A stretch of DNA of 64,000 nucleotides from Candidatus Magasanikiibacteriota bacterium (GCA_003510435.1 DOMK01000018.1:14121-78120), one strand, 5' to 3'; counted from the first letter of the stretch, positions 13,545-62,700 are shown. Notes: generated by a model not told the origin, from the letters alone. Numbers and translations: made by a program.

Positions 13545-13576
13545 AGAAGATATAATTAATAATTAATTTTCAATTT

Positions 13577-13617
13577 ATCCCGATTAAATTCGGGATCCCG
13601 TGCTATGTCGGGACAAT
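13577..13617. repeat. Two adjacent palindromic hairpins between rpsF and ssb
   Basis: atcccgattaaattcgggat plus atcccgtgctatgtcgggacaat. The second hairpin recurs at 33443-33465; the first at 12765-12785 and 34802-34820. Confidence 0.5.
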
Positions 13618-13674
13618 TTTCATTTTATAAATATTTTGAAAATTGAAAATTGGTTTTTATAATTTGTTGTATTA

Positions 13675-22761: not shown

Positions 22762-22784
22762 GTGATATAATATTACCAACACAT

Positions 22785-22809
22785 AACACGAGACACATAT
22801 CACGTAACA
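22785..22809 (-). repeat. Interspersed repeat; 25-nt exact copy (reverse orientation) of 59763-59787
   Basis: rc of aacacgagacacatatcacgtaaca equals tgttacgtgatatgtgtctcgtgtt, identical to 59763-59787. Diverged copies at 27214-27250 and 32891-32920. Confidence 0.6.
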
Positions 22810-22845
22810 ATTGATATGTGATATGTGTTATATGATACGTGAATT

Positions 22846-27113: not shown

Positions 27114-27213
27114 ATTTTTATTTTTAAAAATTAATATATATAAACATTATCATTTCAACCAAAAATAGTCAAATAGCACACTTTATAAAAATTAAACTCC
27201 AAAAACATATAAT

Positions 27214-27250
27214 TTGTGTTATGTGGTTCGTGATATGTGATCGTGTTATT
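27214..27250 (+). repeat. Diverged copy of the gtgttaYgtg..gatatgtg interspersed repeat
   Basis: tttgtgttatgtggttcgtgatatgtgatcgtgtt; about 85% identical to 59758-59790. Confidence 0.5.
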
Positions 27251-32700: not shown

Positions 32701-34174
32701 CACAATACTGTTTACTGTTTACTGTTTACTGTTTACTTATCTGGCCTGGAAAAATTTTCCCTGGGGACTTTATCTTTTCTTTTTTCTTTTACCAACCTAT
32801 TTAATTAGATTTAATATTGGCCCATTACCTACTACCTTATTGGAAGTTATGCTGTGGATAATTACCATAATCTGGCTAATAAAATATCATTCACATATCA
32901 TATACCACATAACACATACCACAAAACAAAATAAAATATTATTTATTGGAATCGCCGTATTTCTATTATCCGCGACAGTATCTATCTTTACTTCCACAGA
33001 CGTTCGTTCGGCACTCGGAGAATGGAAAGCCTTTTATATTGAACCAATAATATTATTTTTAATTTTGATAACCACTTTTAACCCTAAAAATTACCCACCG
33101 GAACAGACTCAACTGGATCAAAAGATCAAAAGATCAAAAGATCAATTTTCTGTCCGATCTTCCGATCTTCCGATCTTCCGATCTTCGATTATCAACCACA
33201 TAATCTTCGCTCTAATTCTATCCGGACTAATTACTTCAGTATTAGCAATATATCAACACTTCACCGGCTGGATGGTACCATACGCCTTTTGGCAAAACCA
33301 AAACACATTTCGTGTCACAGCTTGGTATGGTTTTCCCAACGCGGTCGGATTATTTTTGACACCACTTTTTCCGTTAGCAATATATGGTCTGAAAGAAAGC
33401 ATAAAAAATAAATCTTTCAATCTTTTCCCGACAGAGTACGGGATCCCGTATTATATCGGGACAATCTTTCAATCTTTAATAAAAATTATTCTTTATTCCT
33501 TATTCCTTATTTTATCTCCACTAGCAATACTATATTCAAAAGGTACCGGTCCACTCATTGGACTTGTCGCTGGCATTGGCATATTATTACTATTTTACAA
33601 AAAAACTCGCTGGCCAACTGTTATTTTAAGTCTAATTTGCCTTTCAAGCCTTTTTAGCTTTTCCAGCCTTTCAAGCCTGAAGAATGAGGTTCTTCTCCAA
33701 GATCGCTCTGGTCAAATTCGTTTATCTATTTGGAACGAGACTTGGCAATTTCTTAAAGACAACCCTATTACTGGCGCTGGTCTAGCTTCCTATCAAGAAA
33801 AAATCAAACCTTATCACACAACAGTTAATGGTGAAGGCATAGAAATTTTTCATCATCCACACAATATATTTTTGACTATGTGGATTAATCTGGGTCTATT
33901 AGGTTTAGCAAGTTTTATTGGAATTTTAGTTTCCTTATTCCTTATTCCCTGCCTCACCGGCAGGCAGGCTTATTCCTTATTCAAAAAAAATGAAAACATC
34001 CCAATCATACAATACTTTCTAACTGCTTCTTTAACAACGATAATTGTCACTGGCTTAGTCGACAGTCCATATATCAAAAACGATCTCTCAATTTTATTCT
34101 GGCTTTTGCCAGCTTTATTAATCATGAATTCGTCCAAATCACAATCAGTGAAATCTTTAAATAAATCAACGTAA
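32687..34174 (+). CDS. O-antigen ligase / Wzy_C family membrane protein
   Basis: HHPHNIFLTMWINLGLLGL motif (H.HN....E.G..G of O-antigen ligases); many TM segments. Contains several in-frame repeat elements. Confidence 0.7.
   Translation: MLTTNTILFTVYCLLFTYLAWKNFPWGLYLFFFLLPTYLIRFNIGPLPTTLLEVMLWIITIIWLIKYHSHIIYHITHTTKQNKILFIGIAVFLLSATVSIFTSTDVRSALGEWKAFYIEPIILFLILITTFNPKNYPPEQTQLDQKIKRSKDQFSVRSSDLPIFRSSIINHIIFALILSGLITSVLAIYQHFTGWMVPYAFWQNQNTFRVTAWYGFPNAVGLFLTPLFPLAIYGLKESIKNKSFNLFPTEYGIPYYIGTIFQSLIKIILYSLFLILSPLAILYSKGTGPLIGLVAGIGILLLFYKKTRWPTVILSLICLSSLFSFSSLSSLKNEVLLQDRSGQIRLSIWNETWQFLKDNPITGAGLASYQEKIKPYHTTVNGEGIEIFHHPHNIFLTMWINLGLLGLASFIGILVSLFLIPCLTGRQAYSLFKKNENIPIIQYFLTASLTTIIVTGLVDSPYIKNDLSILFWLLPALLIMNSSKSQSVKSLNKST
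32706..32733 (+). repeat. Tandem heptanucleotide repeat (tactgtt) x4 in codons 7-16 of the Wzy ligase gene
   Basis: tactgtttactgtttactgtttactgtt; unit length is not a multiple of 3. Confidence 0.7.
32891..32920 (-). repeat. In-CDS copy of the gtgttatgtgg..gatatgtga interspersed repeat
   Basis: rc is ggtatgtgttatgtggtatatgatatgtga; 22 of 25 positions match 27219-27243. Confidence 0.45.
33116..33186 (+). repeat. Inverted pair of 8-nt tandem repeat arrays, (gatcaaaa)x3.5 then (cgatcttc)x4, inside the Wzy ligase CDS
   Basis: Period-8 arrays that are near reverse complements of each other; eight GATC sites in 71 nt. Confidence 0.7.
33426..33465 (+). repeat. Two REP-like hairpins inserted in frame in the Wzy ligase CDS
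   Basis: tcccgacagagtacggga plus atcccgtattatatcgggacaat; the second is about 88% identical to 13595-13617. Confidence 0.5.
33948..33968 (+). repeat. GC-rich palindrome cctgcctcaccggcaggcagg flanked by direct repeats cttattccttattc
   Basis: Related to the 12793-12810 palindrome; flanks ttccttattccttattc / cttattccttattc. Confidence 0.4.
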
Positions 34175-38895: not shown

Positions 38896-39479
38896 TCGCT
38901 ATTATAAATTATCAAGCTGGAAATATTACCTCAGTGGCCAATGCTCTTAATAAATTAGGCGTAGATTATGTTATCACCGCTGACAAAGAAATAATTAGAA
39001 AAGCTGACAAAATAATTTTTCCAGGCCAAGGCAGAGCGGGCCAGGCTATTAAGGAACTTAAAAAAGCGGGACTGATTGATCTGATTAAAAACACTTCAGT
39101 CCCCTTTCTTGGTATTTGTTTGGGATTACAAATCTTAGCCACGTCTTCTGATGAAGACAATACCAGATGCTTAGGTATAATTCCTGGCACAGTAAAAAAA
39201 TTCTCTTCAGAATTGAAAATACCACAAATTGGTTGGAATAAAGTAAACCTAACCAAACGATCGTTCCTAACGCAAGATATACCAGACAGTACTTATTTTT
39301 ATTTTGTCCACTCTTATTATCTCATAACTGAAAACAAATATATTATTGGTAAAACCAACTATGATATTGAATATCCAACCATTATAAATAAAAATAATTT
39401 TTATGCCACTCAATTTCACCCAGAAAAATCTGGTGACGTTGGTTTAAAATTATTAAATAATTTCTGCAAGTTATGTTAG
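38892..39479 (+). CDS. hisH: Imidazole glycerol phosphate synthase, glutaminase subunit
   Basis: Class I glutamine amidotransferase; GICLGLQ catalytic Cys, QFHPEKS. Confidence 0.85.
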   Translation: MIAIINYQAGNITSVANALNKLGVDYVITADKEIIRKADKIIFPGQGRAGQAIKELKKAGLIDLIKNTSVPFLGICLGLQILATSSDEDNTRCLGIIPGTVKKFSSELKIPQIGWNKVNLTKRSFLTQDIPDSTYFYFVHSYYLITENKYIIGKTNYDIEYPTIINKNNFYATQFHPEKSGDVGLKLLNNFCKLC

Positions 39480-40948
39480 TTATTCCCGCAATTGATATTC
39501 TAAATGGTAAATGTGTCCGTTTGACCCAGGGTAATTTTAGTTTGGCTAAAAAATATTCTAATAATCCCGTACAAATGGCTAAAAGGTTTACCCAAGCTGG
39601 TGCCACTCGTATACACATTGTAGACCTAGACGGCGCTAAATCTGGTAAACCAATAAACTTTACTCTTATTAAAAAAACTAGACAATCAACTCCGGCTATT
39701 CTTGAAATTGGTGGCGGAATAAGAAATTTAAAAACTGCCAAAACTTACTTAGATCTTGGTATTGATAAAATTATTATTGGCACCAGTGTAATTAAAAATT
39801 TAAAATTAATAAAAAATCTTATTGATAAATACGGCAGTCAAAGAATAATTATCGGCTTGGACTTAAATAAAGATAAAATTGTCATTAACGGCTGGAAAAA
39901 AACTAGTCAACAAAATTATTTATCACTGGCAAAAAAACTAAAGAAAATTGGCACTAGAGAAATAATTTGCACTGATATTTCCCGTGACGGAATGCTTTCC
40001 AATCCAAATTTAGAACCAATTAAAAAATTACAGGCTCTAGGCTTCTGGGTAATAATCTCTGGTGGTATAGCTAATATAAATACAATAAAAAAACTACAAA
40101 CCCAAAAATTCTATGGTGCAATTTTAGGTAAAGCCTTGTATGAAAATAAAATCAACTTTAAACAAGCAATTAAATTAACCAAAACAACCAATAATTTAAC
40201 CAAACGAATTATTCCTTGTTTAGATGTTAAAAATAATCAAGTGGTAAAAGGTATAAAATTCAAAAAACTTACTTTTGCTGGTGATCCAGCTGAACTTGGC
40301 AAAAAATATGCCGAGGCTGGCGCGGATGAATTGGTTTTTTTAGACATCACGGCCACCTTAGAAAAAAGAAAAACCCTATGCTCTATGGTACAAAAAATCG
40401 CTAACAATATTTTTATTCCTTTTACCGTGGGTGGTGGAATTAAATCAGTCAAAGATATTAGCGCAGTATTAAAAGCCGGAGCTGACAAAATTGCTATAAA
40501 TACGGCTGGAGTTTTAAATCCCAAATTGATTAAACAAGCGAGTAAAAAATTTGGTTCACAATGCATTGTCGTAGCGATTGATACTAAAAAAGTTAATAAT
40601 GATTATTTTGTCTATATTAATAGTGGTAAAACAAAAACCAAACTAAAAGTTCTGGATTGGGTAAGGCAAGTAGAAAAACTGGGGGCAGGAGAAATATTAT
40701 TAACTGCCATTGACCGCGATGGTACCAAATCTGGCTTTGATAACAATCTACTCCGACAAATTTGCTCAACTGTTAATATTCCAATAATTGCTTCTGGTGG
40801 CGCTGGTAAATTGGCTGACTTTAAAAATGCCATAATAAAAGGTGGAGCTGACGCTGTCTTAGCTGCCAGTATTTTTCACTACAATAAAAAAACCATAAAT
40901 ACTCTAAAAAAATATTTAAAGAAAAATAATATTAATGTCAGAATATGA
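39473..40948 (+). CDS. hisAF: HisA::HisF fusion (ProFAR isomerase fused to imidazole glycerol phosphate synthase cyclase subunit)
   Basis: Residues 1-240: HisA ([15 protein letters not shown]...[10 protein letters not shown]). Residues 245-491: HisF ([33 protein letters not shown]...[15 protein letters not shown]). One 491-aa ORF. Confidence 0.9.
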
Positions 40949-41550
40949 AACTAATTCCTACAATTATCCAAGATGAAAGTACTGACGTGGTGCTGATGTT
41001 AGGTTATATGAATGATGAGTCACTCAAAAAAACTAAAAAGACAAAAAAAGTCTGGTTTTATAGTCGCTCAAAAAAACGTCTCTGGCTTAAAGGTGAAACC
41101 AGTAAAAATTATTTATTTGTAAAAAGCATAGACTTTGATTGTGACAAAGATACCATTCTTATTAAAGTAAAACCCGCTGGACCAACCTGCCACACTGGTA
41201 ATTATTCTTGTTTTAAAAAAAAGCCTGAGATAAATCCCTTGGTTGAATTGTTTTCCACAATAGAAGATAGAAAAAAGAATCTACCTAAAAATTCTTACAC
41301 CACCAGTTTATTTAAAGGTGGTATAAATAAAATTATTGGTAAAGTAATGGAAGAAACTACTGAGGTAATTAATGCCTCTATCCGAGAAACAAAAAAACGT
41401 TTAATAGAAGAAACGGTCGATTTACTTTACCACCTTTTTGTTTTATTAAGTAAAAAAAATATTAAATTGGAAGATGTTTTTAAGGAGATTGAAAAACGCA
41501 GAAACAAAAAATCCCGGGCTTCATCTGCGACTACGCCCGGCAAGCCCTAA
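40945..41550 (+). CDS. hisI: Bifunctional phosphoribosyl-AMP cyclohydrolase / phosphoribosyl-ATP pyrophosphatase
   Basis: HisI motif CHTGNYSCF followed by a HisE-like C-terminus. The last ~13 codons are supplied by repeat element R1. Confidence 0.85.
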
Positions 41551-41607
41551 CATCTTTTCTAAAAAAAGACTGACCTGCCCAGCGTAGCTTTAGCGAAGCC
41601 TGGGTTT
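41507..41607 (+). repeat. ~100-nt structured repeat element R1 (second copy R2 at 53926-54035)
   Basis: Conserved blocks gactacgcccggcaagc and tgcccagcgtagctttagcgaRgcYgggtt around a variable loop; outer stem cccgggcttc/gaagcctggg. Overlaps the hisI 3' end. Confidence 0.6.
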
Positions 41608-41705
41608 CTTGCCTTGTGTTTGCGCGCAAGCTTGGGTGCTGGAGTTGGTCCGCGGCTCCAGCACCGCGGGTGACATTCCTATGCCACCATACCCCCTTCT
41701 TGTTG

Positions 41706-42329
41706 TTAGATTGCCAGACACTCTGCGACGATATAGCGATTCATCACCGCCATACCATCGACCATCTCACCCTCCTCAATTCTGTGTGTCTCTACAATCT
41801 TAAAACTACCCCAAAGAACATAATCACGCAAAGAATTCTCTGAAAAGTAGAAATCTTCACGCTTACCCCCGTTACCATTCCCATTTAAGATTTTCACGGG
41901 AAATGGCTCATCACCTTCGGCCACTCTAACAGCCAAAAGCAATGGAGCTCCAAGACACATAACTCTACGCAATTCTCGTACAGATGCCATAATCTCTTGT
42001 ACACTATGCATGTTATGCAATACTCTCCAAGAGAGTACTGCACTAAAATAATCATCTGGAAAAGGAAGCTGAGAAAATCTTTGTACCTCAACAAAATTTT
42101 CCAAACCAATAGTAGCTTGACGAGCCCATGGTCCGTCTACTGCGACAACTTCTCTACCGAGAGATCGCAGAACTGATAGATTTCGCCCTCTCCATGCTCC
42201 CCAGTCCAGAACTGGGTTGCGTTCTGAACTCGTAAGGTGGTGGAGCAGGAATTCTTGACCGGAACCAGCCACGAACCCACTAGGTTCATAGCCGATTTCA
42301 TACTTACTCCCTCCGTGCCACTTATCCAT
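41706..42329 (-). CDS. Class I SAM-dependent methyltransferase-like protein (GC-rich island)
   Basis: Degenerate motif I VLDWGAWRGRN, acidic post-I VAVD, motif II-like region. About 48% GC. Strong Shine-Dalgarno AAGGGAGGAAAAAG. Confidence 0.5.
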   Translation of the reverse strand: MDKWHGGSKYEIGYEPSGFVAGSGQEFLLHHLTSSERNPVLDWGAWRGRNLSVLRSLGREVVAVDGPWARQATIGLENFVEVQRFSQLPFPDDYFSAVLSWRVLHNMHSVQEIMASVRELRRVMCLGAPLLLAVRVAEGDEPFPVKILNGNGNGGKREDFYFSENSLRDYVLWGSFKIVETHRIEEGEMVDGMAVMNRYIVAECLAI

Positions 42330-42414
42330 CTTTTTCCTCCCTTTGTTGGGTTGTAGACTCTACCACAATATCGACTTTACAAATCAATATTATGGTAAAG
42401 TCTATTACATAATT

Positions 42415-44199
42415 CTAACTATATTTTTTTCGCAAAATTTTTCCTGCGCCTACTTCATTTTTTAATTTTAAGTAAGCTTCATCCAACGGCACATTAGCTT
42501 GCGAACCAGGAGCAAAACCACAATCCGGATTTAAAATAATTCTGTTCGGTGCCACATACTGCAAAGCTTTTTCTACTCGTGTCACAATTTCTTCTGGTGT
42601 ATCAATGTGTTCAAATCTGCACTCCACACAACCAAGACCTACTTTAAATTTTTCTGGTAAATTTTTTAAGGCGCTAAAATCACCGGCAACTGGGATGCTA
42701 TATTCCAACACAAATTGATCTACATCAATGGCGCTAATGGCAGAAATAATAGCCTCATAGCCACCTTTACCAATCCAACCTTGTCTACCTTTATTGCGCC
42801 GACATAAATGTAATGCTGTTTCTATTCCGTCAATTCCTTTCACAACTTCATTAACTACTTGACAGGCATAATTTAACTCTTTTTTCGGGTCAGAAAATTG
42901 AGTTCGTAATTCTTTATCAACAAATAGACAAATATGAGGATCATCAATTTGCACAATATTAGCACCAGCCTCCCGTAATAAAATAATTTCATTGCGAAGT
43001 ATAGGAATAAGGGCTTCCACAAAAGCCTCACGAGTTGGATAGGCTTTTATAGATTTTTTTTCATCCCACAATCGTTGACCAAGAAGATAAGGCGACGGCA
43101 GGCACACTTTAATTTTTTTAATAGTATGTAATTTCAAAAATTTTGCTTCACGTGCAAAAAACCCAGGTTTATCATAAACCAATTTTTCTTCCACCGTATG
43201 CCATGAACGGCCATCACTTGAATTAAAATAATGTTTAAAACCAGAAGCTATATTGGCTATTACTCCCACATAAGATTTGCGTCGCCATTCTCCATCAGAA
43301 ATTACATCCAAACCAGCCTGCTCTTGCAGTGCTATGGCATAAGCCACTGCCTTATCCAAAATAGGAGAAAAAGGATCACCCTCATTTAGAATAACATCTT
43401 GAACAAATTGTGGTCGCGGCAAACTACCTACAACACTTGCTGGAAATAGCTGTGAGGCAGGTTTCCAAAATTTTTGAGCATAAGCATAATCTTCCAGAGT
43501 ATCAATTTCAATATAGTCACCATGAGTAGTAACAAAATTAATTTTTACACCTTGCTGAACCAAATAATTTAAATAATGTAAAAGATAAGCACGATTTAGC
43601 GGAATGTTTTTTTCAAACTGAAAATTTTTTGGAAGGTTACAAAAATATTCTTTAAATATTTTAGCACCGGCTCGAGAAAATTTAGCCAAGCCAATAAATT
43701 CTCCTGTTGCCAAATCATCTGGAATTGTGCGGCTAAGAGTAGTAATTAGTTCGCCATCCGCTGTTACTTTTTCTGCATCAATGGAGGGGTGAAGACTACG
43801 ATGTACATACCGAGCACGCCAATCAGTATCTACTGCTATGGTAATATCCGCCGGGCTAGCCAATAGTTTTTTAACAATCTCTGGTTTATACAGAATATCC
43901 GAATATGAGCAGATAAAACCATCGCCCATATCATTTATCGCGTAAAAGAGCGATTTTAAAATATTATTATTTTCCCAATTAGTATTATGTCGAAAAGTAA
44001 AATAAGGATATTGTTTTCTTACAACGTCAATTAAATAACCCCCAATAAAAACAATATCCCGTAGTTCTTTTGCTTGATGCGCTTCCAAAATCCAATCTAA
44101 TATCCTTTTATTGTGAACACGAGTAAAAGTTTTTGGTTCAGTATTAGTTAGATGCTCCAACCGCTTACCACGGCCAGCACCTATAATAATTGTTTTCAT
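42415..44199 (-). CDS. Fusion protein: N-terminal sugar-phosphate nucleotidyltransferase plus C-terminal MetE-like (cobalamin-independent methionine synthase family) Zn-dependent domain
   Basis: N-terminus MKTIIIGAGRGKRLEHLT (G-rich NTP-transferase loop). C-terminus VGSLPRP, VQIDDPHI, LHLCRRN, LEYSIP, NPDCGF align with the MetE C-terminal IGSFPQT, IQIDE, HMCY, ENS, NPDCGL Zn-site motifs. Confidence 0.75.
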   Translation of the reverse strand: MKTIIIGAGRGKRLEHLTNTEPKTFTRVHNKRILDWILEAHQAKELRDIVFIGGYLIDVVRKQYPYFTFRHNTNWENNNILKSLFYAINDMGDGFICSYSDILYKPEIVKKLLASPADITIAVDTDWRARYVHRSLHPSIDAEKVTADGELITTLSRTIPDDLATGEFIGLAKFSRAGAKIFKEYFCNLPKNFQFEKNIPLNRAYLLHYLNYLVQQGVKINFVTTHGDYIEIDTLEDYAYAQKFWKPASQLFPASVVGSLPRPQFVQDVILNEGDPFSPILDKAVAYAIALQEQAGLDVISDGEWRRKSYVGVIANIASGFKHYFNSSDGRSWHTVEEKLVYDKPGFFAREAKFLKLHTIKKIKVCLPSPYLLGQRLWDEKKSIKAYPTREAFVEALIPILRNEIILLREAGANIVQIDDPHICLFVDKELRTQFSDPKKELNYACQVVNEVVKGIDGIETALHLCRRNKGRQGWIGKGGYEAIISAISAIDVDQFVLEYSIPVAGDFSALKNLPEKFKVGLGCVECRFEHIDTPEEIVTRVEKALQYVAPNRIILNPDCGFAPGSQANVPLDEAYLKLKNEVGAGKILRKKYS

Positions 44200-44216
44200 A
44201 GTATAATATTAATAAA

Positions 44217-44311
44217 TAAAAAACCTTCGCTCTGTTAAGCGAAGGTGGATAAAATTAAGAATAAACTTAATCAGGCCTTCGCTTAAAAGACATCATCATC
44301 GCCATCATCAT
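44217..44311 (-). promoter_or_regulatory. Candidate leader-peptide transcription attenuator (antiterminator/terminator alternative)
   Basis: Segment A AAGCGAAGG (44284-44276, inside the leader ORF) and segment C AGCGAAGG (44231-44224) are both perfectly complementary to segment B CCTTCGCTT (44245-44237). B:C is an 8-bp stem with a 6-nt loop followed by 6-7 U, ending about 20 nt before the downstream ATG. Confidence 0.5.
44267..44311 (-). CDS. Candidate leader peptide MMMAMMMSFKRRPD (6 Met in the first 7 codons)
   Basis: ATG ATG ATG GCG ATG ATG ATG TCT TTT AAG CGA AGG CCT GAT TAA on the minus strand. Confidence 0.35.
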   Translation of the reverse strand: MMMAMMMSFKRRPD

Positions 44312-44535
44312 ATTTAGTTTGCAATAAAATTCCATAAAAAAACTTCTAACCATAGGTAGAAGTAGTATATAAAACATCTTCCCCTTATGGGTTGGAATTA
44401 CCACCTTGTCTTAAAGATAGGTTGGTAGAGAGTCATTGGGCCAATTCCCTCGTCTCTTCTTGATATAAATTAATTGTCTGTATTTAGATTATCACCACAT
44501 CATTAAATCGTCAAACAACGACTGTGGATAACTAA

Positions 44536-52816: not shown

Positions 52817-53881
52817 ATGCCAAAAATATCAGATAACTTTGCTAGAATAAGAACAATTTTCTTTTTTAGCCTCATTATAATTTTGGGAATTGCCCTCCTC
52901 TATGTTATTAGTCCATTTATTTATCCAATTTTTTGGGCAGCGGTAATAGCGGTTTTAGCTCACCCAACTTACAAAAAACTATTAAAATTCTTTAGATCAG
53001 CCACTCTAAGTTCAATAATTACCATTGTCCTAGTCGTTGCTATAATATTTTTACCTTTAGCTGGTTTGTCTACTTTACTTGTCAATGAATCTATTAGTTT
53101 ATACCAAAAAGTCACAAACACAGGCATAACAAACACTGTCGATAATGTCAGTAATTGGTTAAGCCATAATCAACTACTGGCTCCTTATATAAAGACTATC
53201 CAAAATAGCTGGGCACAATATGCGTCCAACTTTACAAAAACAATTAGTATATTTTTATTTGACAATATAAAAAGTGTCACCCAAAATTCACTCTGGTTTT
53301 TGTTAAGATTCTTCTTAATGCTCTATGCCTTATTTTTCTTTTTAAAAGATGGGCCAAGAATGTTAAAATGTTTAATGCATTTATCTCCTCTGGGGGACAA
53401 ATATGAAACCATGTTGTACGAAAAATTTTCTTCTACCACCAGAGCAACTTTAAAAAGTACTTTATTAGTCGGTGGTATCCAAGGTACCTTGGGTGGAATA
53501 TTGTTTTGGGTCACTGGAGTCGAAGGCGCTCTTGTCTGGTGTGTCATCATGATTGCCTTATCTGTTATACCAGCTGTTGGTTCTTCCATAGTCTGGTTTC
53601 CAGCTGGTATTATAATGCTCGCTACTGGCAACATCTGGCAAGGTATCTTGATTCTATTTTTTGGTCTAACAGTTATCAGTTTAATTGATAATTTCCTTCG
53701 TCCAATTTTTGTTGGCCGAGACACCCAAATGCATCCCATGCTGGCTCTATTTTCTACTTTAGGTGGAATTATAATTTTTGGCATTTCTGGTTTTATTATT
53801 GGACCAGTCTTAGCTTCACTGTTCTTGGCAATCATGAGTATATATGAACACCATTATAATAGTGAGTTGAGTGAAAATTAA
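52817..53881 (+). CDS. AI-2E family transporter (PerM/YhhT-like, UPF0118)
   Basis: 8 TM segments; conserved NFLRPIFVGRD block. Confidence 0.85.
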   Translation: MPKISDNFARIRTIFFFSLIIILGIALLYVISPFIYPIFWAAVIAVLAHPTYKKLLKFFRSATLSSIITIVLVVAIIFLPLAGLSTLLVNESISLYQKVTNTGITNTVDNVSNWLSHNQLLAPYIKTIQNSWAQYASNFTKTISIFLFDNIKSVTQNSLWFLLRFFLMLYALFFFLKDGPRMLKCLMHLSPLGDKYETMLYEKFSSTTRATLKSTLLVGGIQGTLGGILFWVTGVEGALVWCVIMIALSVIPAVGSSIVWFPAGIIMLATGNIWQGILILFFGLTVISLIDNFLRPIFVGRDTQMHPMLALFSTLGGIIIFGISGFIIGPVLASLFLAIMSIYEHHYNSELSEN

Positions 53882-53925
53882 CATTGATTACACTGATTGT
53901 GAGTTGAGATTACACAGATTAAAAC

Positions 53926-54035
53926 AAAAAACCCCGGTCTTTGTCTATGACTACGCCCGGCAAGCTAGATAATCTTTATATCAAAGAATTCAGCTTGCCC
54001 AGCGTAGCTTTAGCGAGGCTGGGGTTTTATTTTTG
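53926..54035 (+). repeat. ~100-nt structured repeat element R2 (copy of R1); also a terminator with T-run
   Basis: accccggtctttgtctatgactacgcccggcaagc...ttgcccagcgtagctttagcgaggctggggttttatttttg. Stem positions maintained relative to R1 by compensatory and wobble changes. Confidence 0.6.
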
Positions 54036-54084
54036 TTAAATATTTGTAAAATTTCTATTAAATTTATTTTAATTTTTTGTTCAA

Positions 54085-54621
54085 TTACCCTTTCACACTA
54101 TCAATCAACTGCTGTACCATTTCTTCTGCCTTTTTCTGTAATTGCGCGCTCGTCATACCCACCCCAATACCATTCTTAAGTTCCTCCATCTGTTCACGAA
54201 CCAACTCACCACGCATTTTTTCTAGTTCTTCTAAATAACCACCAATTTTCTTTTTTAATTCCTCAACTTTTTTCTTATCTTGTTTTAAAGACGAAACATC
54301 ATCATCAGTCTGAGCTAGTTGCAGTTGAGCCCGAAGTTGTCTAATCGCTGTCTGCACCTCTTGCATATGGCGGACAATATTTTGCATTTGTTTCTGGCTA
54401 TTTTTTACTTCACGAATCATAACATCCGCTCGCTCCATGGCCACGGCTGCTTGTAATTCTTTATTCGCTTCACCTTCTTTATTTTCTCTTTGCTCAGCCG
54501 AACTTTCTCTACCTTCCCTAGATCGACGAAGATTATTTTGTTCTGATTCAAATGACATAAAATTACTGTTGCTTATCGACATTATTTTTTTGATCAATTT
54601 CCCAAATCTCTTTTTGCGCAT
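54085..54621 (-). CDS. Hypothetical coiled-coil protein
   Basis: Charged, heptad-rich sequence. Start uncertain: overlaps the upstream gene unless Met 54582 or 54555 is used. Confidence 0.45.
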   Translation of the reverse strand: MRKKRFGKLIKKIMSISNSNFMSFESEQNNLRRSREGRESSAEQRENKEGEANKELQAAVAMERADVMIREVKNSQKQMQNIVRHMQEVQTAIRQLRAQLQLAQTDDDVSSLKQDKKKVEELKKKIGGYLEELEKMRGELVREQMEELKNGIGVGMTSAQLQKKAEEMVQQLIDSVKG

Positions 54622-55234: not shown

Positions 55235-55328
55235 AAAATATTTATTAATATTATGGAAGTATCATAACAAATTAAATAAAAAAACTCAATCTTATACAGA
55301 CTGAGCCTTAAAATAAAAAGTAGAGAAA

Positions 55329-56348
55329 TTATGGATTATTTTTTAATGCTCTAACTGCAAACTCATCGGCATATTGTTCTTTTGGTAAAGACCGATAAGC
55401 AATATTTTGATCATCCACCAATCTAGCCACATCCACCACACCATCTACTACATATTTTTCCCGTAATACGTCACTGTCTTTAACTGCTTGCTCAATTAAG
55501 CCATTCTCAATCATATTATTCAGTGTTGCTGGATTCACATTTGGTAAAGGCAGACTGGCCATTTCCACTCGATTTTTTTGTTTCCAAGCTTCACTTGGAG
55601 ATAATTCAAGATCATTATTATTTTTAAAATTTATTATATAATCATGAGCATGACCAAGTTCGTGTGCAAAAATAAAAGATTGTAATATTTCGGCCGTGAC
55701 CTCTTCTGCTTTCAAACCCAATAATCCAGCTACAATTTCTACTGATTTTTTTCTAGAAACTAATAACTTTCTATAATGTTCTTCATTACCGGGTACAACA
55801 TAAATAGTCGGAGCAGAATCAAACCCTGAAGGATCAGCAAAATAACCACCAGTATGTGACAAAGTTTCTCCAGACTTGGGTTTACCTAATCTTACTTCCA
55901 CTTGACGTAATTCTGGATTGGCTTGTAATATTGTAGCCCACATATTTCCCAAATGTTCTCCTCCTTCTTCAACAATTTTCCTATCAGAAATATCTTTGAT
56001 TTCTTGTTTTCGTTTTTCAATATTTAATAATAAATTTGAAAAATTAATATCATCACCACATAATGTTGAAAATTCCGACATTTGTATATCCAAAACACGA
56101 ATAATATCCTTTACTTTTTCAATTGCAAAACTATCCATTGAATCAACGTGAGTAAACAAATCATCTAATTTTTGTGAAACTAAAATAAACTTGCGTTCTC
56201 GGGTAAGCGCATTGACAATTTCTTTCCTAAACAAATCCAAATCAGTCTCTCTTTTTTTGAGGTCGCCTCCAGTACTACTAGCATCTAAAATTTTTCCATC
56301 TCCTACTGTTAATGACATATAATTTAATAGACATAACATCAATATCAT
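55329..56348 (-). CDS. Hypothetical protein with HExxH zinc-metallopeptidase-like motif
   Basis: FIFAHELGHAHDYI; no further family assignment. Confidence 0.5.
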   Translation of the reverse strand: MILMLCLLNYMSLTVGDGKILDASSTGGDLKKRETDLDLFRKEIVNALTRERKFILVSQKLDDLFTHVDSMDSFAIEKVKDIIRVLDIQMSEFSTLCGDDINFSNLLLNIEKRKQEIKDISDRKIVEEGGEHLGNMWATILQANPELRQVEVRLGKPKSGETLSHTGGYFADPSGFDSAPTIYVVPGNEEHYRKLLVSRKKSVEIVAGLLGLKAEEVTAEILQSFIFAHELGHAHDYIINFKNNNDLELSPSEAWKQKNRVEMASLPLPNVNPATLNNMIENGLIEQAVKDSDVLREKYVVDGVVDVARLVDDQNIAYRSLPKEQYADEFAVRALKNNP

Positions 56349-56394
56349 AACAAATTAAATAAAAAAACTCAATCTGATATAAATTGAGCTTCTG

Positions 56395-56478
56395 TGCCCG
56401 AGGCGGGAATCGAACCCGCACTCTATTGCTAGAACAGGATTTTAAGTCCTGCGCGTCTACCAATTTCGCCACCCGGGC
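56395..56478 (-). tRNA. tRNA-Leu (anticodon UAA), 84 nt, long variable arm, no encoded CCA
   Basis: rc is GCCCGGGTGGCGAAATTGGTAGACGCGCAGGACTTAAAATCCTGTTCTAGCAATAGAGTGCGGGTTCGATTCCCGCCTCGGGCA. 7-bp acceptor stem, GGTTCGATTCC T-arm, anticodon loop CUUAAAA. Confidence 0.9.
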
Positions 56479-59723: not shown

Positions 59724-59756
59724 CAAAATCCGCTGATCAGGCAGATTTTATTTTTT
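59724..59756 (+). terminator. Terminator of the GC-rich cassette
   Basis: aaaatccgctgatcaggcagattttattttttg; imperfect palindrome around tgatca plus T-run. An additional 7-bp hairpin gtgccgg/ccggcac lies at 59659-59682. Confidence 0.5.
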
Positions 59757-59760
59757 GTTA

Positions 59761-59790
59761 TGTGTTACGTGATATGTGTCTCGTGTTTTA
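59761..59790 (+). repeat. Interspersed repeat copy (tgttacgtgatatgtgtctcgtgtt)
   Basis: Exact 25-nt reverse-complement match to 22785-22809. Confidence 0.6.
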
Positions 59791-62700
59791 TGAACACCCA
59801 AGCGACTCCCCACAATTCAAACACTTATAACACGCCCCATTCCTCACAGTCACATGCCCACAAGTAGGACAAGCCGGCGCATCCCCCATCATATTTTTCA
59901 AAGCTTCATCAGAGGCATTGAGTGGTTTATTTCCCAAACTTGGTAAAACTTCTTGTTTTTCTGCGAGCATAACTTCTTCACCATCTTCCATTTCTATTTT
60001 GGTCTCAACCTCTACTTTGGTTTCTAGTGTCATGGTTTCTTGGGCTGGACTATGTTCGGCTAGTTTGGCCAAATTTTCAAATTTATTTTTTTGAATTCCT
60101 TTTGGTGGCACTTGGACAAAATCTGTTCTACCCAGATATTCCATACCCAACACACGGAAAACAAAATCAATAATAGAATTGCAAGACTTGATATTGGGAT
60201 GATCAGTAAATCCGGCCGGAGCAAAATTGGTAAACAAGAAATTTTCTACATATTTTTCTAATGGCACACCGTATTGCAAACCCATAGAGACTGATATCGC
60301 AAACATGTTGAGAAGGGATCTAACTGTTGCACCCTCCTTATACATATCAATAAAAATCTCAGCTACTTTTCCATCTGGATATTCTCCAGTACGGAGCCAA
60401 ATTTGTTGATTACCAACTTTGGCCGCTACTGTAATACCACTCCGTTTGGCTGGAAGTCTTCTTTTTTCACCATGCAGATAAACCCGGCGTTCAGCCACCT
60501 GACCATCACGAGTATATGATTCCATTGGCGTATGAATACCAACATGATTAGAAAGAATTTCACTCGCTTGTCTTACCGCATCTTCTACATTATCAGTGTT
60601 AATCATTTTTGAGACTTGCAATACTTCTTCTTCTGTAATGACTGGCTTTCTCTCTTCAGCCATTACTTTCACCTCAATCTCCGTGTCCTCCTTACTTTCC
60701 GTGTCCTCCGTGTTTTTCTTATCACCTTTATTTTTGGAACTGGTTGAAAGTGGTTGACTTAGTTTGGATCCATCACGATATAGAGCCACCGCTTTTAGAC
60801 CAAGACGCCAGGATTCTTCATAAGCAAATTTTACATCTTCCAATGTGGCATCATTGGGCATGTTGATAGTTTTGGAAATTGCCCCTGATAAAAATGGCTG
60901 TACCGCCGACATCATTCTTACATGACCCATATAATGGATATATCGTTTACCTTTCTTGCCATTTTTATTGGCCGTATCAAACACGGGATAATCTTCTATT
61001 TTCAAATGTGGCGCGCCTTCAATTGTCATGGTACCGCACACATATTGGTTAGCCTCTTCAATTTCACTTTCAGAAAAACCAAGGGCAATAAGCATACTAA
61101 AATTTGGATCATTGTATTGACTTGGGGCAAATCCAACTCGCTTCATACAATCTTCACCGAGTGTCCAAACATTAAAAGCAAATTTAATTTCAAATGCACC
61201 TTTGAGAGCTTTGTTAACCGCTTCAATATCTTCATCATTAAAACCTTTGGCCTTTAAACTAGCTTCGTTAACATGGGGAGCATTTTTAATATCAGCTGTT
61301 CCACGCATGTAGTTAATAACATCAATTACTTCTTGTTCATTATATTTTAGATTTTTTAAAGCCAAAGGTACGGCTTCATTGGCAATGCGGAAATATCCCC
61401 CACCAGCCAATTTTTTAAATTTCACCAAAGCAAAATCTGGTTCTACACCAGTTGTGGCACAGTCCATAAGCAAACCAATTGTACCAGTTGGTGCCAGCAA
61501 TGTAGTTTGGGCATTTCTATAACCATATTTTTCTCCCATAGCCAAAGCCTCATTCCAACTTTCCCTGGCTGCAGCGACTAAATAGGCGGGAGCAAATTCT
61601 GGATTAATGCCTTTTGGTTTAATTACCATTTTTTCATATTCACTTTCTTCAGCATTGAAAGCTGCTCGGCGATGATTACGAATTACGCGCAACATTTCAG
61701 ACCGATTAAATTCAAATTTTGGAAATGTTCCCAAGAGTCTAGCCAATTCTGCGCTAGTCTTATAACTCTCGGCTGTCATAAGAGCAGTCACTGAAGCCGT
61801 AAAAGCATAAGCATCTTCTGATTCATAAGGAATGCCACTCATCATTAATACTGAACCAACATTGGCATAACCCAAACCAAGAGTACGAAAATCATAACTA
61901 CCTTGGGCAATTTCTTTGCTTGGGAATTGAGCCATGAGAATACTAATTTCCAAAACTGTTGTCACTACTCTGGTCGCATGTCTAAAATCTTCTACTAAAA
62001 ATTCTTTGGTATCAGTATTAAAAAATTTTACAAGGTTGAATGATGCCAAATTGCAAGCTGTGTTATCAATAAACATGTATTCACTGCAAGGATTGGAAGC
62101 ATTAATACGACCAGACTCTGGACAAGTATGCCAGTCATTGATTGTCCCATCATACTGTACACCTGGATCAGCACACGCCCAAGCCGCAAAAGCAATTTGA
62201 TCCCACAGAGCTTGCGCTTTCAAAATCTTGCAAGTACTACCATCTACGCGCCAAGTCAAATTCCATGAACCATCATTTTTTACGGCTTCCATAAACTTAT
62301 GAGCCACGCGCACGGAATTATTAGAATTTTGTCCAGACACAGTACCATAGGCTTCACCTTCATAATCAGCGGAATAGCCAGCCGCAATCAAAGCGGCGAC
62401 TTTCTTTTCTTCATTCACTTTCCAATTTATAAATTGTTCAATATCTGGGTGATCAATATCCAATGTCACCATCTTGGCTGCGCGCCGAGTCGTACCACCG
62501 GACTTTATTGCCCCAGCGGCTCGGTCGCCAATTCTAAGCCAGCTCATGAGACCAGAAGATTTGCCACCACCAGACAATGGTTCACCGTTTCCCCGCAGTC
62601 CAGAAAAATTAGTCCCTGTCCCAGAACCATATTTAAATAATCTGGCTTCCCGTACCCAGAGATCCATAATACCACCTTCATTTACCAAGTCATCGGAAAC

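What the first reader, a model, noticed from the sequence alone, without database searches (positions are those of the whole stretch)
41507..41607. ~100-nt structured repeat (R1/R2) with compensatory stem changes; R1 supplies the C-terminal 13 codons of HisIE
R1 (41507-41607) and R2 (53926-54035) share two conserved blocks (gactacgcccggcaagc and tgcccagcgtagctttagcgaRgcYgggtt) around a variable 30-nt centre.
- The blocks pair as a long nested hairpin: ggcaagc/gcttgcc, ctacgc/gcgtag, and outer ccccgg/cYgggg.
- Differences between copies preserve pairing through compensatory and G-U changes, arguing for selection at the RNA level.
- R2 ends in a U-run and acts as a terminator.
- R1 begins inside the hisIE ORF, so the last 13 codons of HisIE ([13 protein letters not shown]) are encoded by the element.
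This could be a terminator family or a small mobile structured RNA.
Basis: seen in the sequence. Interest (0 to 1): 0.6.

Follow-up and report, generated by a model that had tools for sequence, protein, structure and literature searches.

The report
Palindromic repeat terminators built from mobile hairpin
Two ~100-base hairpin repeats that sit where convergent genes end (one lengthening the HisIE protein by about a dozen residues) are each an inverted pair of a 30-base GC-rich hairpin module that also occurs in about 90 other places in environmental bacterial DNA, including in-frame inside housekeeping genes; I found no published description of it.

Summary
The repeat is real. R1 (41502-41612) and R2 (53921-54036) share exact 17-nt and 21-nt blocks (0 expected by chance), and each folds into one long hairpin on either strand. 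Each lies between an A-tract and a T-tract where two convergent genes end. The claim of compensatory changes fails: of 25 predicted pairs, none changed on both sides and 6 show one-sided wobble changes (n=2).

Each copy is an inverted doublet of a sharply bounded 30-nt unit, C[CT]TG-N-CCAGCGTAGCTTTAGCGAAG-NN-GG-N'. An 18-mer from it hit 106 metagenome loci, about 90 unique contexts. The unit's closing pair covaries in all four Watson-Crick forms (78/90 paired; shuffles 38.6±4). Units are mostly intergenic, but some sit in-frame in SerRS, ArgRS, RecF, trigger factor and Kdo transferase. Some are flanked by 7-16-nt direct repeats.

Relatives at 81-88% HisIE identity carry short plain terminators at the R1 site, and their HisIE ends 9-14 residues earlier.

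Best reading: a REP/MITE-like mobile hairpin module, co-opted here as bidirectional intrinsic terminators. What moves it is unknown. No RayT gene is linked to it, and small GIY-YIG nuclease genes are enriched beside units elsewhere. It is a new variant of a known kind, of moderate interest.

The parts
41502..41612 (.). R1, whole composite: A-tract, long imperfect palindrome, T-rich tail
   Evidence: The covariance model built from R1+R2 scores 124.5 bits on + and 40.9 bits on -.
40945..41550 (+). hisIE (PRA-CH/PRA-PH, 201 aa). Its last 13 codons (41509-41547) and stop (41548-41550) lie inside R1.
   Evidence: relatives at 81-88% identity are 187-192 aa and lack the tail.
41502..41511 (+). A-tract AAACAAAAAA. 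It reads as a U/T-run for transcripts arriving on the minus strand.
   Evidence: The same tract precedes R2, and it is also present at hisIE ends in L018/L019.
41512..41545 (-). R1 5' arm. Read on the minus strand it is a variant unit: CTTG-CCGGGC-GTA-GTC GCA GAT-GAA-GCCCGG.
   Evidence: Sequence; its own hairpin is -14.8 kcal/mol. It has the same design as the unit superfamily.
41546..41573 (.). R1 variable centre (28 nt) with a small apical hairpin TCTTTT/AAAAGA
41574..41604 (+). R1 3' arm: canonical unit CCTGCCCAGCGTAGCTTTAGCGAAGCCTGGG
   Evidence: It contains the 18-mer found in 106 metagenome loci.
41605..41612 (+). T-rich tail TTTCTTGC (a weak U-tract for plus-strand transcripts)
41608..41665 (.). 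Two further GC-rich hairpins just after R1: CTTGC..GCAAG (41608-41630) and GGTGCTGGAG..CTCCAGCACC (41635-41665). The first is shared with relative L018.
41706..42329 (-). Convergent partner gene of hisIE: methyltransferase-like ORF (207 aa), the last gene of a ~3-kb block absent from relatives
53921..54036 (.). R2, whole composite: A-tract, long imperfect palindrome, T-tract
   Evidence: Covariance model 130.1 bits on + and 45.7 bits on -.
53932..53965 (-). R2 5' arm (variant unit on the minus strand)
53966..53993 (.). R2 variable centre (28 nt) with apical hairpin TCTTT/AAAGA
53994..54024 (+). R2 3' arm: canonical unit CTTGCCCAGCGTAGCTTTAGCGAGGCTGGG(G), with a perfect 6-bp stem of its own (CCCAGC/GCTGGG)
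54025..54036 (+). T-tract TTTTATTTTTGT. The mirror A-tract is 53921-53931.
52817..53881 (+). AI-2E family transporter gene that ends 40 nt before R2
   Evidence: (Pfam family on the orthologue in L020)
54085..54621 (-). Convergent ORF (178 aa) that ends 48 nt after R2

Best explanation
R1 and R2 are two copies of one ~95-nt composite palindrome in an AT-rich Patescibacteria (CPR) genome.

Anatomy:
- Each copy is an inverted doublet of a 30-nt GC-rich hairpin module.
- One arm is the canonical module, CYTG + stem + GTAGCTTTAGCGAAG loop + stem'.
- The other arm is a diverged module on the opposite strand.
- A 28-nt variable spacer separates the arms.

What the module is:
- It is a discrete structured DNA element that has spread by insertion into many genomes.
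- It lands mostly between genes, sometimes in-frame within genes as about 10 extra codons, and sometimes with a duplication of the target.

What it does here (inferred):
- The composite replaced the stem-loop of ordinary short bidirectional terminators at two convergent gene junctions.
- It probably does the same job. Transcribed from either side, it forms a very stable hairpin followed by a U-run and stops transcription.
- As a side effect, the R1 arm displaced the hisIE stop codon and gave HisIE an element-encoded tail.

Shown: repeat, fold, position, family, unit covariation, empty sites, flanking repeats.
Inferred: termination, and the way the element moves. The enzyme that moves it is unknown.
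For: Repeat and fold.

Position:
- Both copies lie between convergent ORFs with an A-run upstream and a T-run downstream.
- Relatives have plain terminators whose loop holds the hisIE stop codon: L019 AAAAAAATCCCGG-CCTAAA-CCGGGATTTTT, L020 AAAAACCGCT-GACT-AGCGGTTTTTT and L134 AAAAAAATCCGCTAATTAGCGGATTTTTTT. L020 also has AAAAAAATCTTCAAC-ACTTA-GTTGAAGATTTTATTT at the R2 site.
- L018 shares both flanks of R1 but has 17 nt where the window has 86 nt.

Family:
- The 18-mer hit 106 metagenome loci. Conservation ends sharply at a 30-nt unit.
- The closing pair is Watson-Crick in 78/90 contexts, in all four types, against 38.6±4.0 in shuffles and 0 of 10000 shuffles reaching it.
- Related units have different but complementary stems and mini-hairpins.
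- Doublets of the same design occur in L039/L067 and L073.

Insertion:
- 10-aa inserts occur in Pfam-confirmed TrwB, Kdo transferase, RecF, IF-2B, ArgRS and trigger factor.
- SerRS carries the unit in one sub-lineage, while relatives at 75-83% identity lack it.
- Anchored flanking direct repeats of at least 7 nt occur in 7 of 50 independent contexts against 0.16 expected.
- In RecF a perfect 16-nt repeat abuts both ends of exactly 30 nt.
Against: - Termination is not measured. The stems (about 40 bp with mismatches) are far longer than usual for intrinsic terminators.
- R1's plus-strand tail (UUUCUUGC) is a poor U-tract.
- Only two copies were found in about 81 kb of this genome, and none in about 60 kb from close relatives. 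High copy number is therefore not shown here.
- R1 and R2 have no flanking direct repeats.
- The R1 site differs from the 'empty' L018 site by a replacement, not a clean insertion. The composite may have arrived by recombination rather than transposition.
- No transposase or nuclease gene is linked to R1/R2 in the window.
- Only about a fifth of independent unit contexts show flanking repeats.
Confidence: 0.6

Rival explanations
1. R1/R2 are REPINs: inverted REP doublets mobilised on single-stranded DNA by a single-copy RAYT (Y1/HUH) transposase encoded elsewhere in the genome.
For: - The architecture matches: two inverted short hairpin units, a less conserved spacer and one long hairpin (REPIN definition in PMC3116915 and PMC3337134, seen).
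- Each unit has a conserved tetranucleotide (CYTG) 5' of its stem.
- A RayT-like gene (Y1_Tnp, 28.3 bits against a cut-off of 23) sits next to the his operon in relative L134. The family is widespread in CPR.
Against: - No RayT-like gene was found in the window, in 17 kb more of the same contig, or in any of the 106 unit-bearing loci, about 970 kb in all.
- The CPR RayT genes carry a different palindrome in-frame, GTAGAGACGAGGCA.TGCCTCGTCTCTAC. It starts with the REP hallmark GTAG and is more likely their own REP.
- Flanking direct repeats of 7-16 nt are not what IS200/IS605-type enzymes produce (established knowledge of that family).
- REPs are normally lineage-specific, whereas this unit keeps 18 or more identical bases across very different hosts.
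Confidence: 0.12
2. They are just two related intrinsic terminators that arose by a local duplication or gene conversion. Nothing is mobile, and the resemblance to metagenome sequences reflects convergent GC-rich stems.
For: - Only two copies were found in 81 kb, both at terminator positions. They have no target duplications and share an A-tract (AAACAAAAAA).
Against: - An exact 18-mer plus 12 more conserved positions in about 90 unrelated contexts cannot be convergence.
- There are in-frame insertions with empty sites in relatives and a 16-nt target duplication.
Confidence: 0.1
3. R1/R2 encode a small structured RNA, or a cis-regulatory RNA, under selection at the RNA level.
For: - The folds are stable, with z-scores of -3.7 to -7.75.
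- The unit stem and mini-hairpin covary.
- The unit loop contains a symmetric GUA/GAA internal loop that would be purine-rich only in one orientation.
Against: - No Rfam family comes near its threshold.
- No promoter-like site lies beside either copy.
- The palindrome folds equally on both strands.
- Units occur in both orientations relative to host ORFs, 11 opposite and 9 same among those inside long ORFs.
- There is no double-sided change between R1 and R2.
Confidence: 0.05
4. R1 is an attC-like recombination site that marks the edge of an integrated gene cassette (the 3-kb SAM-riboswitch/MetE-like/methyltransferase block absent from relatives).
For: - R1 lies exactly at the left edge of a block that L020 and L134 lack.
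- attC sites are imperfect palindromes of similar size with a variable centre (established knowledge).
- L018 has a different foreign insert at the same point and shares the first 28 nt after R1.
Against: - There are no RYYYAAC/GTTRRRY core sites at the ends (read).
- No integrase gene is nearby among the called genes.
- R2 does not border an obvious cassette.
- The family is mostly solo 30-nt units, too short for attC.
Confidence: 0.03

Closest known systems
REP / REPIN elements with RAYT transposases (Pseudomonas, Enterobacteria; PMC3116915, PMC3337134)
   Same: - A short GC-rich hairpin unit with a conserved 5' tetranucleotide.
- Inverted doublets with a variable spacer that form a long hairpin.
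- Mostly extragenic, often at 3' ends of genes.
   Different: - The tetranucleotide is CYTG, not GTAG.
- The unit has a short stem with a large conserved loop instead of a long stem with a small loop.
- No linked RAYT gene was found.
- Flanking direct repeats are present.
- The same unit occurs in very different hosts, and it inserts inside genes.
SPRITE and other terminator-like MITEs (Streptococcus pneumoniae; reviewed in PMC10969869)
   Same: An interspersed repeat whose transcript looks like a Rho-independent terminator and sits at gene ends.
   Different: - No sequence relation.
- SPRITE is confined to one lineage.
- Here the terminator look comes from host A/T tracts around a palindrome assembled from two 30-nt modules.
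Rickettsia palindromic elements (RPE; PMC10969869)
   Same: Palindromic repeats that insert in-frame into unrelated housekeeping genes and add a peptide segment. R1 likewise adds a tail to HisIE.
   Different: - RPEs are about 100-150 bp and limited to Rickettsia.
- This unit is 30 nt (10 codons) and is found across diverse uncultivated bacteria.
GC clusters of yeast mitochondrial DNA (e.g. GC42; PMC4478555)
   Same: - Short GC-rich hairpin-forming elements scattered in a very AT-rich genome.
- Stems conserved.
- Putative target-site duplications.
- Merging and shuffling of palindromic modules into composites.
- Mobilising enzyme unknown, with endonucleases suspected.
   Different: - Organellar, not bacterial.
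- 2-3-nt flanking repeats (AG/ACT), not 7-16 nt.
- No sequence relation.
Canonical Rho-independent (intrinsic) terminators
   Same: - A GC-rich hairpin followed by a U-run at the end of a transcription unit.
- An A-run upstream makes it work in both directions.
- The same sites in relatives hold textbook examples.
   Different: - The hairpin is about 95 nt with internal loops, instead of 20-35 nt.
- It is a repeated, composite sequence.

Membership tests
Rho-independent terminator | Stable GC-rich stem-loop | tested here: met
   -36 to -54 kcal/mol, z -3.7 to -7.75, on both strands.
Rho-independent terminator | U-tract directly 3' of the stem | tested here: met
   - R2: TTTTATTTTT on + and TTTTTTGTTTT on -.
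- R1: TTTTTTGTTT on - but only TTTCTTGC on +, so it is weak for hisIE itself.
Rho-independent terminator | Located at the 3' end of transcription units | tested here: met
   Both copies lie between convergent ORFs. Orthologous sites in relatives carry short terminators.
Rho-independent terminator | Stops RNA polymerase | not testable with these tools
   Needs Term-seq or a reporter assay.
REPIN / REP-RAYT system | Two REP units in inverted orientation with a spacer, forming a hairpin | tested here: met
   similar doublets in L039 and L073.
REPIN / REP-RAYT system | REP unit is a palindrome preceded by a conserved GTAG (GT[AG]G) | tested here: not met
   The conserved 5' flank is C[CT]TG. GTAG lies inside the loop.
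REPIN / REP-RAYT system | Cognate RAYT gene in the genome, typically flanked by its REPs | tested here: inconclusive
   - None was found in 81 kb of this genome or in 106 unit loci.
- The whole genome is not available here.
- The RayT-like gene in relative L134 carries a different GTAG palindrome.
REPIN / REP-RAYT system | Tens to hundreds of copies per genome | tested here: inconclusive
   2 copies in about 81 kb.
MITE (DDE-transposase dependent) | Terminal inverted repeats and fixed-length target-site duplication | tested here: inconclusive
   - The unit ends are complementary over 5-7 bp.
- Flanking repeats exist but vary from 7 to 16 nt and are seen in about 20% of contexts.
- None flank R1/R2.
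MITE (DDE-transposase dependent) | A parent IS with matching ends | not tested
   No candidate was seen in the held loci.
Integron attC site | R''/R' core sites (RYYYAAC ... GTTRRRY) and an IntI integrase nearby | tested here: not met
   The sequence ends lack the cores. No integrase is among the called genes.
Any Rfam RNA family | Score at or above the family's gathering threshold | tested here: not met
   the best score is 17.7 bits against thresholds of 33 or more.

The most novel reading that the evidence does not exclude
The 30-nt unit may be a previously undescribed kind of bacterial 'nano' mobile element.
- It is a structured hairpin with a conserved loop (GTA-mini-hairpin-GAA) and a free-to-vary stem.
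- It crosses phylum boundaries: CPR hosts and LPS-making hosts.
- It inserts with variable-length target duplications into terminators, into tRNA-proximal spacers, and in-frame into essential genes.
- It would be moved by a structure-specific nuclease rather than a classical transposase. The small GIY-YIG genes enriched beside it are the leading candidate.
- On this reading, R1/R2 are domesticated composites of it.
Probability: 0.3. Interest if true: 0.8.

Novelty: new variant of a known kind. Interest (0 to 1): 0.57.

Why it matters
- CPR/Patescibacteria genomes are small and tightly packed, and little is known about their repeats or their transcription signals.
- Here a selfish-looking hairpin module supplies working parts (terminators, protein tails, 10-residue inserts in aminoacyl-tRNA synthetases and RecF).
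- It is conserved enough across hosts to be tracked by sequence.
- If the mobilising enzyme can be pinned down, it would add a mechanism for how very short structured DNA spreads. It would also give a marker for gene flow among uncultivated bacteria.
- For annotation, it explains a class of odd low-complexity peptides (..NFAKATLDK.., ..QRSFSEVG.., ..TSLKLRW..) and spurious ORF extensions.

Tried and rejected
- **Species-representative genomes.** I scanned them with a pattern requiring both arms. It returned 17 hits, all in unrelated, mostly high-GC genomes. The one CPR hit (L009) is a chance match inside a coding-looking region.
- **Other collections.** Viral contigs gave 0 hits for the 18-mer. 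Phage and plasmid records gave nothing meaningful.
- **Rfam.** Nothing at gathering or permissive thresholds.
- **Literature.** No paper holds the unit sequence or its peptide translations.
- **RayT link.** tblastn and a motif scan over about 970 kb found only the L134 gene.
No third copy appeared in the window, in 17 kb more of the contig or in relatives. It gave only weaker doublet-like hits in other metagenome loci.
- **CRISPR or TIGR-type array.** Rejected: units are mostly solo, and the one tandem array (L109) has no spacers.
- **attC site.** Rejected: no core sites and no integrase.
- **tmRNA or known RNA as the recurrent 'L028-type' host sequence of the unit.** Rfam and ARAGORN gave nothing.
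- **Clean insertion into the loop of the ancestral hisIE terminator.** The alignment shows a replacement of the right half, so the exact event is unresolved.

Full report
**1. The observation**

The 17-nt block GACTACGCCCGGCAAGC and the 21-nt block TGCCCAGCGTAGCTTTAGCGA each occur exactly twice in the 64-kb window, even with three mismatches allowed. Shuffles give 0.00 expected.

- The copies align at about 80% identity. They have the same 31-nt distance between blocks and a more divergent 28-nt centre.
- Each folds into one long nested hairpin on either strand. R1 gives -35.9 kcal/mol (z -3.7) on plus and -54.1 (z -7.2) on minus. R2 gives -49.9 (z -7.75) and -46.5 (z -6.5).
- hisIE (40945-41550) runs into R1, so residues 189-201, [13 protein letters not shown], are read from the 5' arm.
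- The same R1 sequence is present in four independent assemblies of two samples, and R2 in a second assembly. It is not an assembly artefact.

The 'compensatory change' claim does not hold. Of 25 consensus pairs, none changed on both sides and six changed on one side to or from a wobble pair. Two sequences cannot show selection.

**2. Where the copies sit**

The organism is an AT-rich (about 33% GC) Patescibacteria/CPR bacterium from groundwater.

- R1 lies between hisIE (+) and a methyltransferase-like ORF (-).
- R2 lies between an AI-2E-family transporter gene (+) and a 178-aa ORF (-).
- Each palindrome is bracketed by AAA(A)CAAAAAA on the left and a T-rich run on the right. Read from either strand it is therefore a hairpin followed by a U-run.
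- R2 has good U-runs both ways. R1 has a good one on the minus strand (TTTTTTGTTT) and a poor one on the plus strand (TTTCTTGC).

**3. The same sites in relatives**

HisIE proteins at 81-88% identity are 187-192 aa and stop 9-14 residues earlier. Their DNA shows short textbook bidirectional terminators whose loop contains the hisIE stop codon:

| Locus | Terminator at the hisIE end |
|---|---|
| L019 | AAAAAAATCCCGG-CCTAAA-CCGGGATTTTT |
| L020 | AAAAACCGCT-GACT-AGCGGTTTTTT |
| L134 | AAAAAAATCCGCTAATTAGCGGATTTTTTT |

- L018 (87% HisIE identity) shares both flanks of R1: AACAAAAAATCCC on the left and TTTCTTGCCTTGTGTTTGCGCGCAAGCT on the right. It has 17 nt where the window has 86 nt.
- At the R2 site the syntenic relative L020 has a different short terminator, AAAAAAATCTTCAAC-ACTTA-GTTGAAGATTTTATTT.
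- So both positions are terminator positions. In this lineage the plain stem-loop has been replaced by the same ~95-nt palindrome.
- The change at R1 is a replacement rather than a clean insertion, and there is no flanking duplication. How the composite arrived is unresolved.
- R1 also marks the left edge of a ~3-kb block that L020 and L134 lack. The block holds a methyltransferase, an NTP-transferase/MetE-like fusion and a SAM riboswitch.

**4. The composite is built from a 30-nt module**

An exact 18-mer from the 3' block (CCAGCGTAGCTTTAGCGA) hit 106 stretches of metagenome DNA. These come from groundwater, sediment and other environmental samples and give 90 unique 98-nt contexts.

- Conservation starts and stops abruptly. 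The unit is C[CT]TG-N-CCAGCGTAGCTTTAGCGAAG-NN-GG-N', 30 nt, with no conservation outside it.
- The closing pair N:N' is Watson-Crick in 78 of 90 contexts: T:A 46, C:G 22, G:C 5, A:T 5, plus 8 T:G. Shuffles give 38.6±4.0, and none of 10000 reached 78.
- The predicted fold is a 6-8-bp stem, a symmetric GUA/GAA internal loop, and a 2-bp GC/GC mini-helix closed by UUUA.
- Looser matches in the same loci keep this plan while changing both helices in step. Stem examples are TCCAGC/GTTGGA, CCCCGC/GTGGGG, CACCGC/GTGGTG, ATCCGCC/GGCGGAT and CCAGCC/GGCTGG. Mini-hairpin examples are GC-TTTA-GC, GCC-TT-GGC and GCC-CTTA-GGC.
- Read on the minus strand, the 5' arms of R1 and R2 are such variants. R1's is CTTG-CCGGGC-GTA-GTC GCA GAT-GAA-GCCCGG, with its own 6-bp stem.
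- R1 and R2 are therefore inverted doublets of two different module variants with a spacer. Doublets of the same design occur in L039/L067 and L073. Most units (83 of 92) are solo, and one locus has a spacer-less tandem array.

**5. Evidence that the module moves**

- Of 92 contexts, 55 are intergenic or in short ORFs, about 20 lie inside long ORFs, and the rest are at ORF ends. Both orientations occur.
- The in-ORF cases are real genes with a 10-residue insert: a TrwB-type coupling protein, Kdo transferase, RecF, an IF-2B/MtnA family protein, ArgRS and trigger factor. The insert reads ..NFAKATLDK....QRSFSE.. or ..TSLKLRW.., depending on frame.
- SerRS carries the unit at the tip of its N-terminal coiled coil in L029, L062, L096 and P0122. 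SerRS proteins at 75-83% identity lack it.
- A 97%-identical SerRS (L138) has a different unit variant, of the GCGAAGCCTTGGCGAAG type, at the same spot.
- Direct repeats that abut the unit are enriched. Repeats of at least 7 nt occur in 7 of 50 independent contexts against 0.16 expected, and 0 of 200 shuffles reached this. Three of the seven come from one host family.
- In RecF a perfect 16-nt repeat, TGGGACAATGAAACAA, touches both ends of exactly the 30-nt unit. The solved RecF aligned there has no counterpart for the insert.
- Taken together, these results indicate that the unit has inserted repeatedly.
- The hosts are diverse. SerRS relatives are named Patescibacteria or Nealsonbacteria. 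Kdo transferase implies a lipopolysaccharide-making host (inference). Host loci span 32-59% GC.

**6. Who moves it**

*RayT.* A RayT-like Y1 transposase gene lies beside the his operon in relative L134, and the family is common in CPR.

- There is none in the window, in 17 kb more of the same contig, or in the 106 unit-bearing loci.
- These genes carry a different palindrome in-frame, GTAGAGACGAGGCA.TGCCTCGTCTCTAC. It reads as CRDEALPRLY or VETRHCLVST. It starts with the REP hallmark GTAG and is the likelier RayT substrate.
- IS200/IS605-type enzymes do not make target duplications (established knowledge).
- REPIN membership is therefore not supported, although the architecture is REPIN-like.

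*GIY-YIG.* Clustering all ORFs of the unit loci gave one recurrent neighbour, an ~80-aa GIY-YIG nuclease (Pfam 50-73 bits).

- Six independent units have one within 500 nt.
- Only three such genes lie in about 550-665 kb further than 1 kb from a unit, and none in the window and relatives.
- In three loci the unit is 13-56 nt upstream of the ATG in the same orientation.
- These genes follow tRNA (or tmRNA-like) 3' ends. Units are mildly enriched near tRNAs, in 9 of 80 contexts against a background of 0.036 per kb.
- This is a lead, not a mechanism. Both may simply collect at tRNA-proximal hot spots.

**7. How it most likely works here**

- Shown: structure, position, and replacement of ordinary terminators.
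- Inferred: R1 and R2 act as bidirectional intrinsic terminators for the convergent gene pairs. The HisIE tail is a by-product of the 5' arm carrying no stop codon in that frame until TAA at 41548.
- The tail lies after the PRA-PH domain and is probably neutral (inference).

**8. Comparison with known systems**

- The architecture is closest to REP/REPIN.
- The likely role is closest to terminator-like MITEs such as SPRITE (PMC10969869).
- The in-frame habit is closest to Rickettsia palindromic elements (PMC10969869).
- The general biology is closest to the GC clusters of yeast mitochondria: GC hairpins in an AT-rich genome, putative target duplications, merging of modules, and an unknown enzyme (PMC4478555).
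- It is not a member of any of these by sequence or by their defining features.
- No Rfam family matches. No paper in the searchable library holds the sequence or its peptides.

**9. Verdict and limits**

R1 and R2 are real, and their local role is ordinary: they are terminator-like repeats. They belong to a short structured insertion module that appears undescribed and is unusually conserved across hosts.

Limits:
- Only about 81 kb of this genome was examined.
- The unit family was sampled through one exact 18-mer. This fixes part of the stem and hides much of its diversity.
- Host taxonomy is known for a few loci only.
- Nothing about transcription or mobility was measured.

Noticed in passing
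window 41551-44535: A ~3-kb block lies between hisIE and a NUDIX gene. It holds a methyltransferase-like ORF (41706-42329, -), a 594-aa NTP_transf_3 + Meth_synt_2 fusion (42415-44199, -) and a SAM riboswitch (44371-44469, -, 64.5 bits). Syntenic relatives L020 and L134 lack the block; there hisIE and NUDIX overlap tail to tail. GC is about 39% against about 32% around it. L018 has a different GC-rich insert at the same point.
   Followed up: partly
window 33935-33985: A different GC hairpin (CCTGCCTCACCGGCAGGCAGG) is flanked by a 14-nt direct repeat, CTTATTCCTTATTC, at the end of a membrane-protein ORF. The same CTTATTCCTTATTC motif recurs at 33493-33510. It shows the same 'GC hairpin plus flanking direct repeat' habit as the 30-nt unit.
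   Followed up: partly
window 13575-13620 and 33423-33468: A second palindromic repeat family is present (TTATCCCGA..TCGGGATCCCG..CGGGACAAT, 78-83% alike). Similar GTCCCG..CGGGAC hairpins occur beside units in metagenome loci L055, L065, L091 and L095.
   Followed up: no
window 22780-22841, 27210-27239, 59749-59792; L020:19885-19920: A motif ..ACACGAGACACATATCACGTAACA.. recurs in both orientations in the window. It also occurs downstream of the AI-2E gene in relative L020. Its function is unknown.
   Followed up: no
window 55260-55306 and 56343-56389: A 47-nt direct repeat (91% identical) lies upstream (on the minus strand) of two neighbouring genes and next to the tRNA at 56395-56478. It may be a duplicated promoter or leader.
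   Followed up: no
window 39473-40948: hisA and hisF are fused into one 491-aa ORF (two His_biosynth domains). The fusion is also present in most of the close relatives fetched.
   Followed up: no
L134:2887-3480 (relative); proteins P0241-P0360: RayT-like Y1 transposases of CPR carry a GC-rich perfect palindrome between the HUH and Tyr motifs, in-frame: GTAGAGACGAGGCA.TGCCTCGTCTCTAC. It is read as CRDEALPRLY or, in another frame, VETRHCLVST, and is often duplicated. It starts with GTAG, like a REP, so the transposase gene may carry its own substrate.
   Followed up: partly
L073:2321-2722, L054:295-700, L086:10387-10800, L045:8926-9448, L125:1747-2422, L060:5257-5853: A module recurs in which a tRNA (or tmRNA-like 3' end) is followed by unit-type hairpins and then a small GIY-YIG nuclease gene. 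GIY-YIG genes are about 20-fold denser within 500 nt of units than elsewhere in the same loci.
   Followed up: partly
L028:10150-10330 and the like in L033, L041, L046, L060, L072, L091, L095, L098, L103, L105, L114, L123: A ~150-nt conserved sequence hosts the unit in many contigs: ..GCGTTTTTT..GCCGACAGTTTTTGAGAGCGAGGCCGAC-[unit]-AGGCCGAGCAATATAAATAGTAGGAGCGA..GCGACTAC. The unit is flanked by a 7-nt repeat, AGGCCGA. There is no Rfam, tRNA or tmRNA match, so it may be an undescribed structured element.
   Followed up: partly
L138:660-700 vs L029 (SerRS genes, 97% identical proteins): The same codon position holds two different unit variants (the GCGTAGCTTTAGCGAAG type and the GCGAAGCCTTGGCGAAG type). 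This suggests either repeated hits at one site or conversion between variants.
   Followed up: partly
L109:262-350: At least three identical 30-nt units lie head to tail without spacers, next to two variant units. It is the only tandem array seen.
   Followed up: no
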